A stretch of 64,000 bases of DNA from Acidimicrobiia bacterium (GTDB lineage: Bacteria > Actinomycetota > Acidimicrobiia > Spongiisociales > UBA11373). Positions within the stretch are counted from its first letter, which is position 1, and the number at the start of each line of letters is the position of its first letter. The stretch lies in NCBI GenBank assembly GCA_016932695.1, contig JAFGCH010000071.1, positions 4,099 to 68,098 of the forward strand, read 5' to 3'. Both the position numbers and the translations under genes were made by a program. Below, piece after piece: positions 17,288 to 23,018 of this stretch. Below the pieces are notes generated by a model. The model did not search any database, had not been told where the DNA came from, and saw only the letters and a program-made list of their open reading frames with translations.

Positions 17288-18988
17288 TTGAGAGCTAACG
17301 CCTTGCGGCGACTGCTCGTCCTGGCGGTGCTCCTCGCCTTCGTCGTCGCGGCCTGCGGTGACGACGAAGGGGGCGAGACCACCACGACGACCGCCGCGAC
17401 CACCACTACGGGTGGCGCCGCCAGCACGACGACGACGTCGTCCGGCGAGACCACCACCACCACGGAACCCTTCGTGATCGAACCCGGGCTCAGCGGGCTA
17501 CAGGTCGTCGACGATCTCACCTTCACGGTGACCATGGCCGGGGCCGATCCTGAGTTCCCCCTGAAGCTGGCGTACGCGGCCTACTTCCCCTTGCCCAAGG
17601 TCGCCTTCGACGATCCGGCAGCCTTTGAGGAGAGCCCCATCGGCAACGGCCCCTTCATGATGGACGGGCCGTGGGAGCACGATGTGGTCATCCCTATGAA
17701 GCGTTTCGAGGCCTATGCCGGGCCCGATCCGGCCCAGATCGAACGCCTCGAGTGGACCATCATCGACGACCTGAACACGGCTTATAACGAAGTCCGGGCG
17801 GGCAACCTGGACATCCTGGGGCCGGCCCTGCCTACCGATCAGATCGCCACCGCGGCTGCCGAGTTCGGCGACCGCTACGGCATGTCGTCGTCGACTTCGT
17901 TCACCTACATGGGATTCCCGCTGTACCTGCCCGAGTACCAGGACCCGGATGTGCGGCGGGCCCTGTCGATGGCCATCGACCGAGACCTGATCGTCGAGCA
18001 GATCTACGCCAACACCCGGGTGGCGGCGTTCTCGACCATCCCGCCGATCTTCCAGGGAGCCCGAGAGCACGTCTGCGACAACTGGGACTACAACCCCGAC
18101 GAGGCCAGGGCGCTCTGGGACTCCATCGACCACCCCGATTCGCTGATCGTCTGGTTCAACACCGGCGGCGGTCATGAGGAGTGGGTCGAGGCCGTGGCCA
18201 ACATGTGGCGCAACAACCTGGGAATCGAGGACATCACCTTCGAGAGCCTGGAGTTCTCGGAGTACAACCCGCTCCTCGACGCGCAGGGCGCCACCGGCCC
18301 GTTCCGTCTCGGCTGGGGTCAGGATTACCCCTCCCCGCTGAACTTCCTGGAGCCGCTGTACGCCTCGTACAACTTGCCCCCGATCGCCTCGAACAACACC
18401 TGGTACAACAGCCTGGCGTTCGACGACCTGATCGCCCAGGGCAAGGCGGCCGTGGCCGCTACCGGCAACCTGGCCGACGGCATCCCCTTCTACCAGCAGG
18501 CCGAAGACATCCTGTGCCAGGACGTCCCCGTGGCCCCGGTGTGGTTCCGGACCAACCAGTTCGTCTTCGCCGAGGGCATCGGCGACGTCCACTACGACTC
18601 GTACAGCGACCTCGGGGTGACCAAGGTCACCAGCGATGACGGCTTGGTGTCGGTCCAGCTGTCCGAGCCGGAGCACCTGTTCCCGACCACCTCGAACGAG
18701 TCGAACGGGATCCAGGCGCTGCGGGCGCTCTTCACCGGCCTCGTCCAGTACGACGCGGCGACGAACGAGATGTTCTTCGCCAACGCCGAGTCCATCACGT
18801 CCGAGGACGGCGGCCTCACCTGGACCGTCACTTTGAAGCCGGGGTGGACCTTCCACAACGGTGAGCCGGTGACCGCCTGGTCCTACGTGAATGCCTGGAA
18901 CTACGGCGCCGACCAGGCCAACGCCCAGCAGAACAACTCGTTCTACGCCGGGATCGCCGGCTACGACGAGCTGAACCCTGCCGGCTGA
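17288..18988 (+). CDS. ABC transporter substrate-binding lipoprotein, family 5 (Opp/Dpp-type), with an apparently circularly permuted domain order
   Basis: It has a signal peptide and lipobox (LAFVVAAC) followed by a Thr/Gly-rich linker. The N-terminal region matches the middle of OppA (FTVTMAGADPEFPLKLAYAAYFPLPK ~ TLEVTLSEPVPYFYKLLVHPSTSPVPK). The usual N-terminal signature (LFTGLVQYD...LTWTVTLKPGWTFHNGEPVTAWSYVNAW...YAGIAGYDEL) sits at the extreme C-terminus. Confidence 0.85.
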   Translation: MRANALRRLLVLAVLLAFVVAACGDDEGGETTTTTAATTTTGGAASTTTTSSGETTTTTEPFVIEPGLSGLQVVDDLTFTVTMAGADPEFPLKLAYAAYFPLPKVAFDDPAAFEESPIGNGPFMMDGPWEHDVVIPMKRFEAYAGPDPAQIERLEWTIIDDLNTAYNEVRAGNLDILGPALPTDQIATAAAEFGDRYGMSSSTSFTYMGFPLYLPEYQDPDVRRALSMAIDRDLIVEQIYANTRVAAFSTIPPIFQGAREHVCDNWDYNPDEARALWDSIDHPDSLIVWFNTGGGHEEWVEAVANMWRNNLGIEDITFESLEFSEYNPLLDAQGATGPFRLGWGQDYPSPLNFLEPLYASYNLPPIASNNTWYNSLAFDDLIAQGKAAVAATGNLADGIPFYQQAEDILCQDVPVAPVWFRTNQFVFAEGIGDVHYDSYSDLGVTKVTSDDGLVSVQLSEPEHLFPTTSNESNGIQALRALFTGLVQYDAATNEMFFANAESITSEDGGLTWTVTLKPGWTFHNGEPVTAWSYVNAWNYGADQANAQQNNSFYAGIAGYDELNPAG

Positions 18989-19105
18989 CCCATCCACCGG
19001 AGGAGTGGGGCGGCCCCTCCCGCCGCCCCACTCCCCAGACCGAAGCCGTGCTCTTGGAGAAGGTAGGGATCGTGTCCACCCAGCGAGGAAGACGGTAGGA
19101 AGGCC

Positions 19106-20029
19106 ATGGGCCGCTACCTGATTCGCCGCCTGCTGCAGTTCATCCCGGTCTTCTTCGGGGCGACCCTCCTGATCTTCATCATGGTGTGGGCCATCCCCGG
19201 GGATCCCATCGCCGCGCTGGCCGGGGACCGGGTGTTGCCCGAGCAGGTGGTCCAGCAGATCCGGGATCGGTACAACCTGGACGACCCCCTCATCGTGCAG
19301 TACGGCAAGTACATGGGCGGGGTCTTCCAGGGTGACTTCGGCGAGGACTTCCGGGGCCGGCCGGTCACCGATCTGCTCGGCCAGCGGCTCCCCATCACCG
19401 TGCGCCTGGCCTTGCTCGCCTTCGGCTTCGAAGTGGTGCTGGGAATCATCGCCGGCATCCTGGCCGGGGTGCGCAAGGGGGGCTTCGTCGACAACCTCGT
19501 CCTGATCTCCACCCTGGTGGTCATTGCCATACCGATATTCGTGCTGGGCTTCCTCGCCCAGCTATTACTGGGAGTGAGGTTCGGCTGGTTCCCGGTGTCG
19601 GGGGTGCAGCACGGCCTGTACAGCTACCTCCTCCCCGCCATGGTGCTGGGGTCGGTGTCGCTGGCCTACATCGCTCGGCTGACCCGCACCAGCCTCATCG
19701 AGAACCTGCGCGCCGACTACGTGCGCACCGCCACCGCCAAGGGCCTGTCGCGCCGGCGGGTGGTGGGCATCCACACCTTCCGTAACTCGATGATCCCGGT
19801 GGTCACTTTCCTGGCCATCGACCTGGGATCGCTGATGGGCGGGGCCATCATCACCGAGACCATCTTCAACATCCCCGGCCTGGGCCGGGCCGTCTTCGAG
19901 GGGGTGCAGCGGCAGGAGGGCACCGTGGTGGTGGGCATCGTCACCTTCCTGGTCCTGGTGTACATGATGGCCAACCTGCTCGTCGATGTTCTGTACGCCG
20001 TGCTCGACCCGAGGATCCGCTATGAGTGA
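19106..20029 (+). CDS. ABC transporter permease (OppB/DppB-like)
   Basis: MGRYLIRRLLQFIPVFFGATLLIFIMVWAIPGDP is the canonical OppB N-terminus. It is 307 aa. Confidence 0.9.
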   Translation: MGRYLIRRLLQFIPVFFGATLLIFIMVWAIPGDPIAALAGDRVLPEQVVQQIRDRYNLDDPLIVQYGKYMGGVFQGDFGEDFRGRPVTDLLGQRLPITVRLALLAFGFEVVLGIIAGILAGVRKGGFVDNLVLISTLVVIAIPIFVLGFLAQLLLGVRFGWFPVSGVQHGLYSYLLPAMVLGSVSLAYIARLTRTSLIENLRADYVRTATAKGLSRRRVVGIHTFRNSMIPVVTFLAIDLGSLMGGAIITETIFNIPGLGRAVFEGVQRQEGTVVVGIVTFLVLVYMMANLLVDVLYAVLDPRIRYE

Positions 20030-20963
20030 CCGCGACCGCGAGCGCTTGTTCACCAGTTCGCCGGCCCCCGTGGTCGCCTCCTTCGAGGAGCTCGAAGCCG
20101 AGCCGATCATCCGGCGAGAGGGCAGCCTGTACGCCGATGCCTGGCGCCAGTTGCGCCGGCGGCCCATGTTCATCATCTCCGGAGTCCTGATCGTCATCCT
20201 GGCGGTGATGGCCATCTGGCCGGGCCTGTTCACCCGGGCCGACCCCCGGGCCTGCAACCTGGCCGATTCCCTCCTGAGGCCGAGCAGCGAGCACTGGTTT
20301 GGCACCGATGTGCAGGGCTGCGACTACTACGCCCGCACCATCTGGGGGGCCCGGGTTTCGATCACCATCGGAGTGTTGGTCACCGCCTGCTCCACCTTGA
20401 TCGCTGTGCTGCTGGGCTCCATGGCCGGGTACTACGGAGGCTGGGTGGACACGGTGATCGCCCGCCTCACCGACATCTGGTTCGCCATCCCCACCATCCT
20501 CGGCGGCATCGTGATCCTGCGGTCGGTCTTCTCCACCCGGGGCCTGCTGCAGGTGAGTCTGGTGCTCATCGTGCTCGGCTGGCCCACCATGCTGCGCCTG
20601 GTGCGCTCGGCGGTGATGGCCACCAAGGAGATGGACTACGTCGATGCCGCCCGGGCGCTGGGGGTGCGCAACTTCCGCATCATCCGACGCCACATCCTGC
20701 CCAATGCGGTGGCGCCGGTCATCGTATACGCCACCATCACGGTGGGGGTGATCATCTCGGCCGAGGCGGCGCTCTCCTTCCTCGGTGTGGGCCTGCAGCT
20801 CCCGGCCATCTCCTGGGGCCTGATGATCAGCGTGGCTCAGAACCGCATCCTCACCGCCCCCCACCTGCTGCTCTTCCCGGGAGCCTTCCTCTCGGTGACC
20901 GTGTTCTCCTTCATCCTGATGGGCGACGCCCTGCGGGACGCCCTCGACCCGAGGTTGCGCTGA
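20022..20963 (+). CDS. ABC transporter permease (OppC/DppC-like)
   Basis: The product from MSDRDRERLF is a typical OppC TMD. ATG at 20022 overlaps the previous stop by 8 nt. The 5' extension of the listed ORF is unlikely. Confidence 0.9.
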   Translation: MSDRDRERLFTSSPAPVVASFEELEAEPIIRREGSLYADAWRQLRRRPMFIISGVLIVILAVMAIWPGLFTRADPRACNLADSLLRPSSEHWFGTDVQGCDYYARTIWGARVSITIGVLVTACSTLIAVLLGSMAGYYGGWVDTVIARLTDIWFAIPTILGGIVILRSVFSTRGLLQVSLVLIVLGWPTMLRLVRSAVMATKEMDYVDAARALGVRNFRIIRRHILPNAVAPVIVYATITVGVIISAEAALSFLGVGLQLPAISWGLMISVAQNRILTAPHLLLFPGAFLSVTVFSFILMGDALRDALDPRLR

Positions 20964-22006
20964 TGGCCACCACCCTGAGCCGAGATGCCGTCGCCGGCCG
21001 GCCCGTCGACCCGGCGGCCCCCCTGCTGGTGGTCGAAGACCTGCACGTCGAGTTCCGCATCGAAGCTGGCACGGTGCGGGCCGTCAATGGCCTCTCTTAC
21101 ACCCTGCGGCGAGGGGAGACCGTGGCCATCCTGGGGGAGTCGGGGAGCGGCAAGAGCGTGAGCGCCCAGGCGGTGATGGGCATCATCGACAGCCCGCCCG
21201 GTTTCGTGACCGGGGGCTCGGTGCGTTTTCGCGGGGTGGAGTTGCTCGACCTGTCCGAGGCGGACCGACGCCGGGTACGGGGCGACCGGATCGCCATGAT
21301 CTTCCAGGACGCCCTGACCGCCCTGAACCCGGTGTTCCCGGTCGGATGGCAGATAGCCGAGATGTTCCGCATGCACCGCGGAGTGCCCCGCAAGGAAGCC
21401 CGGGAGAAGGCCATCGAGTTGATGGAGAGGGTCAAGATCCCCTCGGCGCGCACCCGGGCCGGGTCTTACCCCCACGAGTTCTCCGGCGGCATGCGCCAGC
21501 GGGTGATGATCGCCATGGCGCTCTCTCTCGACCCCGAGATCCTCATCGCCGACGAGCCCACCACGGCCCTCGACGTCACGGTACAGGCGCAGATCATGGC
21601 CCTGCTGGCCGAATTGCAGCAGCAGACGGGCATGGGCCTCATCCTCATCACCCACGACCTGGGGGTGGTGGCCGAGGTGGCCGATCAGGTGGTGGTGATG
21701 TACGCCGGGCGGGAGGTGGAGAAGGGGCCCAGCCTGCCCGTGTACCACCGGCCGGCGCACCCCTACACCCTGGGCCTCATGGACTCTCTGCCCCGCCGCG
21801 ACGTGCATACCGAGCGGCTGCGTCCCATCAAGGGCTCGCCTCCCGACCTGCTGGCCATCCCGCCGGGCTGCCCCTTCCGGCCCCGTTGCCCGTACGCGCG
21901 CGACATCTGCGCCGCCGAGGAGCCGCCGCTGGCCGCGGTGACCTCCGAGCACGTTTCCGCTTGCCATTTCTGGGAGGAGGTGTCCCGTGAGCGCGCCGGC
22001 GCCTGA
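20963..22006 (+). CDS. ABC transporter ATP-binding protein (OppD-like)
   Basis: It carries Walker A (GESGSGKS), the LSGGMRQR signature and a C-terminal oligopeptide-ABC extension with Cys. Confidence 0.9.
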
Positions 22007-23018
22007 TCCCATTCGCCACGGCGAGGTGGTGCTCCGGGTGGAGCACCTGGTCAAGTACTTCCCTATCACCCGGGGCATCGTCTTCAAGCGCCAGATTGGC
22101 ACGGTCAAGGCGGTCGACGACGTCAGCTTCGAGTTGCACGAGGGCGAGACCCTGGGCCTGGTGGGGGAGTCGGGCTGCGGCAAGACGACCACCGCCCGCA
22201 CCATCCTCCGCCTCGAGAAGGCCACCAGCGGGCACGCCTGGTATCGGGGGCGGGACATCTTCACCCTCTCCGGGAAGGAGATGCGCGAGTTGCGGCGCGA
22301 GATCCAGGTGATCTTCCAGGACCCCTACGCCTCGCTGAACCCCCGCATGACGGTGGGTGACATCATCGGAGAGGGATGGCGGGTGCACCCAGGAGTGATG
22401 CCCAAGAACCGCCGCCGGGCTCGCATCCACGAGCTGCTGGAGCTGGTGGGCCTCAACCCGGACCACATCAACCGCTACCCCCATCAGTTCTCCGGGGGCC
22501 AGCGCCAGCGCATCGGGGTGGCCCGGGCACTGGCCCTGGAGCCCAAGATCGTCATCTGCGATGAGCCCGTGTCGGCGCTCGACGTGTCGGTGCAGGCCCA
22601 GGTGGTGAACCTGCTCGAAGACCTGCAGGATGAGCTCGGCCTGTCGTACCTGTTCATCGCCCACGACCTCTCGGTGGTGCGCCACATCTGTGATCGCATC
22701 GCGGTGATGTACCTGGGCAAGATCGCGGAGACCGGGGACGAGTATCAGGTGTACGACAACACCGCTCACCCCTACACCACGGCCCTCCTGTCGGCGGTGC
22801 CCATTCCCGACCCGGCGGCGCGCCACCTGGGCAGGCGGATCCTGCTCGAAGGCGATGTGCCCAGCCCGGCCGATCCGCTCAGCGGCTGCCGCTTCCGTAC
22901 CCGCTGCTGGAAGGCGCAAGGGGTCTGCGCGCAGACGGAGCCGGAACTGATCGACCGGGGCCAGGGCCACCCGGTGGCTTGCCACTTCGCCCAGGTGGAG
23001 TTCGACCCGGCGCGCTAG
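21987..23018 (+). CDS. ABC transporter ATP-binding protein (OppF-like)
   Basis: It carries Walker A (GESGCGKTT) and FSGGQRQR, and overlaps the upstream ATPase gene. Confidence 0.9.
   Translation: MSAPAPDPIRHGEVVLRVEHLVKYFPITRGIVFKRQIGTVKAVDDVSFELHEGETLGLVGESGCGKTTTARTILRLEKATSGHAWYRGRDIFTLSGKEMRELRREIQVIFQDPYASLNPRMTVGDIIGEGWRVHPGVMPKNRRRARIHELLELVGLNPDHINRYPHQFSGGQRQRIGVARALALEPKIVICDEPVSALDVSVQAQVVNLLEDLQDELGLSYLFIAHDLSVVRHICDRIAVMYLGKIAETGDEYQVYDNTAHPYTTALLSAVPIPDPAARHLGRRILLEGDVPSPADPLSGCRFRTRCWKAQGVCAQTEPELIDRGQGHPVACHFAQVEFDPAR

What the first reader, a model, noticed from the sequence alone, without database searches (positions are those of the whole stretch)
17288..18988. Apparent circular permutation of a family-5 (OppA-like) substrate-binding protein
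The mature protein begins at the segment that in canonical OppA follows the N-terminal signature (FTVTMAGADPEFPLKLAYAAYFPLPK ~ OppA TLEVTLSEPVPYFYKLLVHPSTSPVPK). The canonical N-terminal lobe (LFTGLVQYD...TWTVTLKPGWTFHNGEPVTAWSYVNAW...YAGIAGYDEL ~ OppA LFEGLL...WTFHLRK...DGTPVTAQDFVYSW...YGHIAGIDEI) forms the extreme C-terminus. It ends exactly where the N-terminus would resume. This is the signature of a duplication-then-truncation circular permutation. The ORF is continuous, and it sits in an intact opp operon.
Basis: seen in the sequence. Interest (0 to 1): 0.6.

Follow-up and report, generated by a model that had tools for sequence, protein, structure and literature searches.

The report
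Naturally circularly permuted peptide-binding lipoprotein
The peptide-catching receptor of an ordinary bacterial peptide importer is built with its first ~115 folded residues moved to the end of the chain, a real and conserved rewiring that related bacteria appear to have evolved at least four separate times.

Summary
ORF 17288-18988 (+) encodes a 566-aa family-5 (DppA/OppA-like) substrate-binding lipoprotein. Its order is reversed relative to M. tuberculosis DppA: residues 68-421 match DppA 130-488 and residues 457-562 match DppA 14-118. The old C-terminus joins the old N-terminus through about 3 residues (SDDG). The chain ends exactly where its own N-terminus resumes.

It is not a misassembly. 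About 115 collinear homologues exist, and at least 43 species-level genomes carry the gene, always upstream of oppBCDF. Titles that name a class say Acidimicrobiia. AlphaFold gives pLDDT 91. The peptide-binding Trp/Asp pair is invariant.

The permuted family is one clade (97% bootstrap) beside canonical proteins about 55% identical. The cut lies in the most length-variable loop of canonical relatives.

Three further rotations of the same ring turned up in other Actinomycetota. Each heads an opp operon and each groups with different canonical proteins.

Function is most likely an ordinary tethered peptide receptor. The novelty is topological: no paper or PDB entry found shows this topology for cluster C. 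The only precedent found is T. pallidum MglB-2 (cluster B). Origin by duplication and truncation is inferred, not shown.

The parts
17288..18988 (+). Whole gene for the circularly permuted family-5 substrate-binding lipoprotein (566 aa plus stop)
   Evidence: ORF list. PF00496 at 205 bits. Identical to NCBI MAG protein P0001, 'hypothetical protein JW785_05740 [Acidimicrobiia bacterium]'.
17288..17356 (+). Lipoprotein signal peptide, residues 1-23, lipobox V-A-A-C with Cys23
   Evidence: Read from the sequence. Cys23 is invariant and Ala22 nearly invariant across 78 family members. AF2 predicts a helix at residues 3-23.
17357..17467 (+). Thr-rich disordered tether, residues 24-60
   Evidence: pLDDT below 50 for residues 24-52. 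The tether is 36% Thr across the family, with a median length of 38 residues against 15 in canonical relatives.
17468..18631 (+). Block B, residues 61-448: the second part of domain II, the domain I core, hinge, domain III, hinge and the last beta-hairpin. It corresponds to canonical residues ~154 to the end in Mtb DppA precursor numbering.
   Evidence: Query 68-421 = DppA chain 130-488. Query 68-448 = residues ~184-562 of the canonical relatives. Foldseek aligns about 400 columns to DppA at rmsd about 3 A.
18314..18325 (+). Codons for W343-G-Q-D346, the conserved peptide-binding Trp and Asp
   Evidence: They align to GW442RGD445 of Mtb DppA, residues shown to contact the peptide (PMC10954201). 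W343 and D346 are invariant in the family.
18632..18643 (+). Fusion connector S449-D-D-G452, joining the old C-terminus to the old mature N-terminus
   Evidence: Comparison with canonical termini. The family consensus is 'ITSxDGxVS'. pLDDT is 96-97 across residues 441-460.
18644..18985 (+). Block A, residues 453-566: canonical N-terminal strand 1 of domain I plus the first part of domain II, now at the C-terminus
   Evidence: Query 457-562 = DppA chain 14-118, i-E 3e-21. Query 445-565 = residues ~54-174 of the canonical relatives at 60-67% identity.
19002..19034 (+). G+C-rich 13-bp hairpin just after the stop codon, in the oppA-oppB intergenic region
   Evidence: MFE -42.2 kcal/mol, z = -3.5. 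A comparable hairpin sits at the same position in all 15 other loci folded, 11 permuted and 4 canonical.
19106..20029 (+). oppB-like permease
   Evidence: PF00528 plus PF19300. Syntenic in the loci fetched wherever the contig extends far enough.
19986..20963 (+). oppC-like permease
   Evidence: PF12911 plus PF00528. Synteny.
20963..22006 (+). oppD-like ATPase
   Evidence: PF00005 plus PF08352. Synteny.
21987..23018 (+). oppF-like ATPase
   Evidence: PF00005 plus PF08352. Synteny.

Best explanation
The gene encodes the lipid-anchored receptor (cluster C / family-5 substrate-binding protein, DppA/OppA-like) of a five-gene peptide ABC importer. Its chain is a natural circular permutant of the canonical fold.

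Chain path. After the lipobox Cys23 and a disordered Thr-rich tether of about 40 residues, the chain starts in the middle of domain II, at the equivalent of Mtb DppA residue ~154. It runs through the domain I core, the hinge, domain III, the hinge again and the last beta-hairpin. It then passes through about 3 residues (SDDG) straight into what is normally N-terminal strand 1. It ends after the first ~115 canonical residues, at the equivalent of DppA ~142.

Shown: the sequence order, the junctions, conservation, synteny, and a single origin within a lineage whose class-level titles read Acidimicrobiia.

Predicted: the three-dimensional fold is unchanged, and both hinge crossovers and the ligand pocket are intact.

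Inferred function: it works as an ordinary Venus-flytrap peptide receptor that docks on OppBC. The physical consequences of the permutation are only that the membrane tether now attaches to a domain II surface loop instead of strand 1, and that the old termini are closed.

Inferred origin: an in-frame head-to-tail duplication or fusion of the mature coding region, followed by loss of the first A block and the last B block. The new termini settled in the most indel-tolerant loop of the fold.
For: - Swapped, abutting blocks against Mtb DppA, E 3e-21 and 2e-49, and against four canonical relatives 53-67% identical.
- 115 collinear family members among 513 relatives, from NCBI, JGI, ENA and Logan assemblies, including contigs up to 5.9 Mb.
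- At least 43 GTDB species representatives carry the permuted gene. It is directly followed by oppBCDF wherever the contig allows.
- AF2: pLDDT 90.8, pTM 0.83, and 96-97 across the fusion junction.
- Foldseek: Mtb DppA is the best match, about 400 columns at rmsd about 3 A, and no full-length sequential match exists in PDB.
- W343 and D346, equivalent to DppA W442 and D445 that contact the peptide, are invariant.
- The DppA residues that dock on DppB/C (precursor 221-282) map to the unmoved block B.
- On a de-permuted alignment the family is monophyletic (97/100) and groups with the four canonical relatives (91/100).
- Blocks A and B share the same four nearest canonical relatives.
- The cut coincides with the most length-variable loop in 322 canonical proteins.
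Against: - No experimental structure or binding data exist.
- No duplication intermediate or DNA remnant was found, so the origin scenario is a model.
[quoted passage not shown] That contact cannot be the same here, so docking might differ in ways I cannot assess.
- The trees are neighbour-joining on corrected p-distances, not maximum likelihood.
Confidence: 0.88

Rival explanations
1. Assembly or gene-calling artefact: the 5' part of a normal gene was misplaced at its 3' end in this metagenome-assembled contig.
For: The window is a MAG contig. Some relatives clearly carry frameshift or assembly errors (P0033, P0156).
Against: The same order, junction and termini occur in about 115 proteins down to 36-50% identity from four independent data sources. 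They also occur in at least 43 species-level genomes. The lipobox, tether and stop codon are conserved, and oppBCDF follows. No leftover fragment or repeat lies in or near the gene.
Confidence: 0.01
2. Mosaic origin rather than true permutation: the C-terminal block A was captured from a different, paralogous SBP gene. Something similar was suggested for the permuted part of T. pallidum MglB-2.
For: Block A is relatively more conserved than block B against canonical proteins (60-67% against 53-55%). One MAG carries both a permuted and a canonical operon (L037 and L041), so donor paralogues exist.
Against: For five type-1 proteins tested, blocks A and B have the same nearest canonical relatives: the same four for four of them, overlapping sets for the divergent P0150. 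Their similarity profiles across canonical proteins correlate, rho 0.58-0.72. Block A is more conserved than block B in canonical-to-canonical comparisons of this family as well.
Confidence: 0.06
3. The permutation is adaptive rather than neutral. Moving the tether from strand 1, next to the permease in Mtb DppABCD, to a distal domain II loop changes how the receptor is presented to or released from OppBC, or protects the binding site from strain on the tether.
For: Every rotated protein examined keeps a lipobox and a low-complexity tether. The only other natural permuted SBP family found is also made of tethered lipoproteins, and its authors raised the same idea. In M. tuberculosis the N-terminal loop and lipid pack against DppB. 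Permutation arose repeatedly.
Against: Canonical sisters carry the same long tethers of 21-39 residues, so tethering does not require permutation. The permeases next to permuted and canonical receptors are equally similar to the window's permeases. The breakpoints sit in the most indel-tolerant loops, which is what neutral tolerance predicts. The T4 rotation has short tethers.
Confidence: 0.2
4. The gene is a decaying or functionless relic of a rearrangement.
For: NCBI annotates the identical protein only as 'hypothetical protein'.
Against: The reading frame is intact. There are 59 invariant columns across 78 sequences, including ligand-binding residues. The family persists down to 36-50% identity with retained operon context. 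The fold is predicted confidently.
Confidence: 0.02

Closest known systems
Mycobacterium tuberculosis DppA (Rv3666c; PDB 6E3D, 7JLS, 8WD9), a canonical cluster C lipoprotein SBP of the DppABCD importer
   Same: It is the best sequence and structure match (E 1e-72; Foldseek about 400 columns at rmsd about 3 A). Both are lipoproteins. The peptide-binding Trp/Asp pair is the same. Both lie in an SBP-permease-ATPase operon.
   Different: The chain order is rotated: DppA 14-118 lies at the C-terminus here. The tether enters at the equivalent of DppA residue ~154 instead of residue 25. The tether is about 40 Thr-rich residues rather than a short loop that packs on DppB. The ATPases are two proteins (OppD and OppF) rather than a fused DppD.
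Canonical Acidimicrobiia-type relatives P0100, P0108, P0110 and P0114 (uncharacterised)
   Same: They are 53-67% identical per block, with the same lipobox and Thr-rich tether. Canonical-order loci 50-54% identical to the query (for example L041, L044) are followed by the same oppBCDF genes. They form a clade with the permuted family (91/100).
   Different: They have the normal A-B order. The loop that is cut in the query is intact and of variable length.
Treponema pallidum Tp0684 (MglB-2), the 'Type Ic / Cluster Bc' circularly permuted glucose-binding lipoprotein (PMC4990184)
   Same: It is a natural circular permutation of an ABC-importer SBP in which roughly the first 100 residues sit at the C-terminus. 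It is a tethered lipoprotein, it is conserved as a family, and it retains ligand binding.
   Different: It belongs to a different structural class (cluster B, sugar-binding). Its permutation adds a fourth hinge crossover, whereas the query's cut is in domain II and leaves both crossovers untouched. Its permuted part has poor sequence similarity to canonical MglB, whereas here both blocks are 53-67% identical to canonical relatives.
Salmonella / E. coli OppA (PDB 1B05 and others)
   Same: Same Pfam family and the same three-domain architecture.
   Different: Only about 20-24% identical. The NCBIfam OppA equivalog scores 122 bits against a cut-off of 947. It is soluble in the periplasm and has the canonical order.

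Membership tests
Family-5 / cluster C substrate-binding proteins (Pfam PF00496 SBP_bac_5) | Significant match to the family profile above the curated threshold | tested here: met
   205.1 bits against a gathering score of 32.4, in two stretches.
Family-5 / cluster C substrate-binding proteins (Pfam PF00496 SBP_bac_5) | Three-domain, two-lobe fold like OppA/DppA | tested here: met
   AF2 gives pLDDT 90.8 and pTM 0.83. All top Foldseek matches are DppA, OppA or MppA. This is a prediction only. The superposition covers block B, and the placement of block A was not superposed.
Family-5 / cluster C substrate-binding proteins (Pfam PF00496 SBP_bac_5) | Canonical N-to-C order of the structural elements | tested here: not met
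   The blocks are swapped against DppA and against canonical relatives. No PDB chain gives a full-length sequential match; TMq is at most 0.61.
Family-5 / cluster C substrate-binding proteins (Pfam PF00496 SBP_bac_5) | Conserved peptide alpha-amino-binding Asp and neighbouring Trp (Mtb DppA W442 and D445) | tested here: met
   W343 and D346 align to them, are invariant in 78 sequences, and their role is documented in PMC10954201.
Family-5 / cluster C substrate-binding proteins (Pfam PF00496 SBP_bac_5) | Encoded with cognate Opp/Dpp-type permeases and ATPases | tested here: met
   oppB, oppC, oppD and oppF lie immediately downstream. This is conserved in the permuted loci wherever the contig allows.
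Family-5 / cluster C substrate-binding proteins (Pfam PF00496 SBP_bac_5) | Binds peptides and delivers them to the transporter | not testable with these tools
   Needs ITC or DSF with peptides and transport assays.
E. coli-type OppA orthologue (NCBIfam NF011684 equivalog) | Score above the equivalog cut-off | tested here: not met
   122 bits against a cut-off of 947. It is OppA-like, not an OppA orthologue.
Bacterial lipoprotein | Signal peptide ending in a lipobox with an invariant Cys | tested here: met
   The N-terminus reads MRANALRRLLVLAVLLAFVVAAC. Cys23 is invariant. No dedicated predictor was run.
Circular permutant (formal definition) | Two blocks that together cover the whole domain, in swapped order, with neither overlap nor gap at the new termini | tested here: met
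   In canonical HMM coordinates the C-terminus ends at column 155 and the N-terminus starts at column 158 (medians). The junction was also read directly.
Circular permutant (formal definition) | Old termini joined directly or by a short linker | tested here: met
   The connector is SDDG, and it is conserved as TSxDG in the family.
Circular permutant (formal definition) | Same three-dimensional structure under order-independent superposition | tested here: inconclusive
'Cluster Bc / Type Ic' permuted SBPs (TpMglB-2 family) | Cluster B (type I) sugar-binding fold with a fourth hinge crossover | tested here: not met
   The query is cluster C. Its cut lies in domain II, away from the hinge. It is an analogue, not a member.

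The most novel reading that the evidence does not exclude
Family-5 peptide receptors of Actinomycetota are a natural hot-spot of recurrent circular permutation. There are at least four different breakpoints and perhaps six origins. All of them keep the lipid tether and all sit in working operons.

The most novel reading not excluded is that the rewiring is selected rather than neutral. It would reposition the membrane tether relative to the permease. In the hinge-cut rotation (type 2) it would reduce the two covalent hinge crossovers to one, so it would tune docking or open-close kinetics. If so, these families would be a natural experiment on how chain topology shapes SBP dynamics, and a ready-made map of permissive split sites for biosensor design.
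Probability: 0.2. Interest if true: 0.75.

Novelty: new variant of a known kind. Interest (0 to 1): 0.58.

Why it matters
1. **A new topology class for a heavily studied fold.** It adds a natural, well-populated permuted form to cluster C SBPs. No solved structure has it, and I found no paper describing it.
2. **An unusually clean evolutionary case.** The permuted family still has canonical relatives 53-67% identical. Three further rotations of the same ring exist in other lineages. This lets one ask how permutations arise and why they end at particular loops.
3. **Practical consequences.**
   - Annotation pipelines stumble on these proteins: the identical NCBI protein is called 'hypothetical'.
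   - Order-dependent structure searches under-score them.
   - The natural breakpoints mark sites where the fold tolerates new termini, which is useful for engineering SBP-based sensors.
4. **A test of a published claim.** The permuted proteins let one test whether recognition of the SBP's N-terminal loop by the permease is needed for assembly of lipoprotein-dependent importers.

Tried and rejected
- **Remnants of a duplication:** there is no second copy or fragment of the gene in the 64-kb window (tblastn). No meaningful direct repeats flank or lie within the gene, only the low-complexity Thr-codon repeat. Nothing SBP-like is visible in the three forward-frame translations of the flanking intergenic DNA.
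- **Evolutionary intermediates:** I looked for A-B-A, B-A-B or tandem fusions among 513 relatives. The only over-long proteins are a kinase fusion (P0142) and frameshifted calls (P0033, P0156).
- **Doubling every sequence before hmmalign:** this broke the alignment of canonical proteins. It was fixed by doubling only the rotated ones.
- **First version of the rotation caller:** it mislabelled proteins, including the query, because of a weak signal-peptide match. This was fixed.
- **Hypothesis that a long tether permits permutation:** only partly supported. Canonical sisters of types 1-3 already have long tethers, but type 4 has short ones.
- **Shared junction linkers as evidence of common origin:** rejected. 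The 'DG/GG' before strand 1 is inherited from the canonical N-terminus, so similar linkers can arise independently.
- **The 499-aa antisense ORF (17498-18997):** treated as a high-GC artefact.
Full report
**1. The observation**

The ORF is real: 17288..18988 (+), 566 aa, TTG start preceded by GGAGG. It matches Pfam PF00496 at 205 bits against a cut-off of 32.4, in two stretches.

Against PDB sequences, the best relative is M. tuberculosis DppA. The match comes in two pieces in the wrong order:

| Query residues | DppA chain residues | i-E-value |
|---|---|---|
| 457-562 | 14-118 | 3e-21 |
| 68-421 | 130-488 | 2e-49 |

Four uncharacterised canonical-order proteins (P0100, P0108, P0110, P0114) are 53-55% identical to block B and 60-67% identical to block A. 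They let both junctions be read residue by residue.

- **Fusion.** The canonical C-terminus '...INYTEISVNN*' and the canonical mature N-terminus 'GGVFSTYIVEPEHL' appear fused in the query as '...LGVTKVTS-DDG-LVSVQLSEPEHL'.
- **Cut.** The canonical loop '...GYDEMNPAEGE|EPTAEALAGLAVVDDLTF' is cut. The query ends '...GYDELNPAG*', and after its tether it begins 'EPFVIEPGLSGLQVVDDLTF'.

**2. Not an artefact**

- The identical protein is in NCBI as a 'hypothetical protein' of an Acidimicrobiia MAG.
- BLASTP shows that about 110 of the best 120 homologues are collinear with the query over their full length, down to 51% identity. They come from NCBI, JGI, ENA and Logan assemblies, including contigs of 0.7-5.9 Mb.
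- A scan of one genome per GTDB species returned 80 loci. tblastn shows the permuted order in at least 43 of them. Most are titled Acidimicrobiia, Acidimicrobiales or Acidimicrobiaceae, and the rest carry only generic titles such as Actinomycetota or Actinomycetes bacterium. The canonical order is found in Mycobacteriales, Pseudonocardia, Blastococcus, Nocardioides, Catellatospora and Euzebya.
- One MAG has both a permuted and a canonical operon (L037 and L041).
- In both kinds of locus the SBP gene is followed directly by orthologous oppB-C-D-F.
- The window holds no second copy, fragment or flanking repeat.

**3. Structure and function**

- AlphaFold2 with 78 family sequences gives pLDDT 90.8 and pTM 0.83. 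Only the Thr-rich tether (residues 24-52) is disordered. The fusion junction scores 96-97.
- Foldseek aligns in chain order. It finds Mtb DppA first, but over only about 400 columns (rmsd about 3 A, TMq about 0.6). No PDB chain matches over the full length. That is the expected result for a permuted chain, and it means no solved structure has this topology.
- Published OppA domain limits are domain II = 45-188 and domain III = 270-486 (PMC6305025). With query residue 70 aligned to OppA 135, the new termini lie inside domain II and both hinge crossovers are untouched.
- The peptide-contacting W442 and D445 of Mtb DppA (PMC10954201) correspond to W343 and D346. Both are invariant in the family.
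- The DppA residues that dock on DppB/C (precursor 221-282) map to block B, which did not move.

I therefore infer a normal tethered Venus-flytrap peptide receptor.

The one physical change of possible consequence is the tether. In M. tuberculosis the N-terminal loop and lipid run along DppB TMH2, and the authors consider that contact a prerequisite for assembly. Here the chain enters the fold at a domain II loop, through a flexible linker of about 40 residues.

**4. Origin**

I aligned every relative to a canonical-order HMM, using doubled copies for the rotated proteins.

- The 114 type-1 proteins form one clade in 97 of 100 NJ bootstraps, once two long-branch sequences are removed. They group with the four canonical relatives in 91 of 100.
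- Blocks A and B have the same nearest canonical relatives. The permuted gene therefore descends from one canonical gene, not from a graft.
- The junction 'TSxDG' and the termini are conserved across the family, which points to a single event.
- The cut coincides with the single most length-variable loop in 322 canonical proteins: 4-21 residues at the 5th to 95th percentile, and up to 36.

The classical duplication/deletion route fits, but it is not demonstrated. It also needs an in-frame internal deletion, because the signal peptide and tether stayed at the N-terminus. No intermediate was found.

**5. Beyond the finding**

The exhaustive representative search and segment mapping revealed other rotations of the same ring. 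All of them keep the old-C-to-old-N fusion.

| Type | Cut in query coordinates | Location | Examples |
|---|---|---|---|
| 2 | ~q213\|219 | Just after the first hinge crossover | P0141, P0127 |
| 4 | ~q278\|285 | Domain III | P0235, P0240, P0257 |
| 3 | ~q332\|334 | Domain III | P0136 |

- Each has its own lipobox and tether, and each ends where its own N-terminus resumes.
- Each heads an opp operon (L081-L084).
- Type 2 has about 27 clusters at 90% identity, including a Nitriliruptoraceae MAG and contigs up to 2 Mb.
- The P0257-type of type 4 has about 12 clusters from Bifidobacteriaceae and Micrococcales, including a cultured Sanguibacter isolate, P0392.
- Of 513 relatives, 322 are canonical, 115 type 1, 33 type 2, 17 type 4 and 1 type 3. 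The other 25 are partial or odd.
- Each rotation is 47-63% identical to some canonical protein but only 33-41% identical to other proteins with the same rotation.
- No bootstrap replicate joins types 1 and 2, all type-4 clades, or all rotated proteins. The number of all-rotated clades is 5-10 in 100 replicates.
- Junction linkers are clade-specific.
- All four breakpoints fall among the eight most length-variable regions of the canonical fold.
- The type-2 protein is also predicted to fold (pLDDT 85.8). Foldseek again recovers only its largest collinear block, about 290 columns.

At least four permutation events occurred, and possibly six. These trees are NJ only and need maximum-likelihood confirmation.

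**6. What is known**

Full-text searches found no report of a permuted OppA, DppA or cluster C SBP. The library covers only open-access papers and preprints.

The one natural precedent found is T. pallidum MglB-2, a cluster B glucose-binding lipoprotein. Its first ~100 residues sit at the C-terminus, and its authors proposed a 'Cluster Bc' subclass and speculated on a link with tethering (PMC4990184). The present family is an analogue in a different structural class, not a member. Its similarity to canonical relatives is much clearer, and it adds no extra hinge crossover.

**7. Verdict**

Function is most probably ordinary; the chain topology is the new element. I class it as a new variant of a known kind.

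Interest is moderate to high for people who work on SBPs or protein-topology evolution, mainly because the permutation recurs. I leave open whether the rewiring is adaptive (about 20%) or simply tolerated at permissive loops, which I favour.

Noticed in passing
Related proteins P0141, P0127, P0397-P0422 (locus L081); P0257, P0278-P0282, P0392; P0235 (L082); P0240 (L083); P0136 (L084): There are three further circular rotations of the same SBP ring in other Actinomycetota, cut at about q213|219, q278|285 and q332|334 in query coordinates. Each has its own lipobox and tether, heads an opp operon, and is closest to a different canonical protein. This implies several independent permutation events.
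   Followed up: yes
window 19002-19034 (and the same position in L001-L034, L041, L044, L047, L052): A perfect 12-16 bp G+C-rich hairpin directly follows the SBP stop codon, conserved in position but not in sequence in both permuted and canonical loci. Some copies are followed by a U-run; the window's is not. It is probably the usual oppA-oppB attenuator or mRNA-stabilising stem-loop.
   Followed up: partly
P0142 (930 aa): A canonical-order family-5 SBP domain is fused behind what reads, by eye, as an N-terminal Ser/Thr protein kinase domain, a Pro-rich linker and a transmembrane segment. This would be a receptor kinase with an SBP5 sensor. No domain search was run on it.
   Followed up: no
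window 17288-18988; P0001: NCBI names the identical protein only 'hypothetical protein', while relatives are named 'ABC transporter substrate-binding protein'. All NCBIfam equivalogs score far below their cut-offs. The permutation seems to defeat name assignment.
   Followed up: partly
L037 and L041 (both from MAG CAVQVN01, MFD09964.bin.1.364): One genome carries both a permuted (47% identity) and a canonical (54% identity) SBP gene, each followed by its own oppBCDF. The two forms can therefore coexist as paralogous systems.
   Followed up: partly
window 17357-17467; tethers of the whole family: The tether is mucin-like: 36% Thr, median 38 residues against 15 in canonical relatives overall. 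It produces a spurious sub-threshold Pfam hit to 'New_glue'. It may be O-glycosylated, as in other actinobacterial lipoproteins (my own knowledge, untested).
   Followed up: partly
P0141 residues 278-286 and 401-438 (type-2 family): The type-2 fusion linker is a conserved 'DxDGDG' motif that resembles a calcium-binding loop. Type-2 proteins also carry an acidic insertion of about 38 residues with two Cys exactly at the loop where type 1 is cut.
   Followed up: no
P0033 (617 aa), P0156 (642 aa): These are relatives whose C-terminal parts turn into Arg/Pro-rich nonsense. They are evidently frameshifted gene calls from assembly errors, not evolutionary intermediates.
   Followed up: partly
window 17498-18997 (- strand): A 499-aa ORF lies antisense to the SBP gene, and similar long antisense ORFs occur across the operon. 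These look like typical high-GC (about 65-70%) artefacts rather than genes; no homology search was run on them.
   Followed up: no
P0448, P0505 (Knoellia spp.): Canonical family-5 SBPs are labelled '4-phytase' in UniRef/NCBI, which is probably a propagated misannotation.
   Followed up: no
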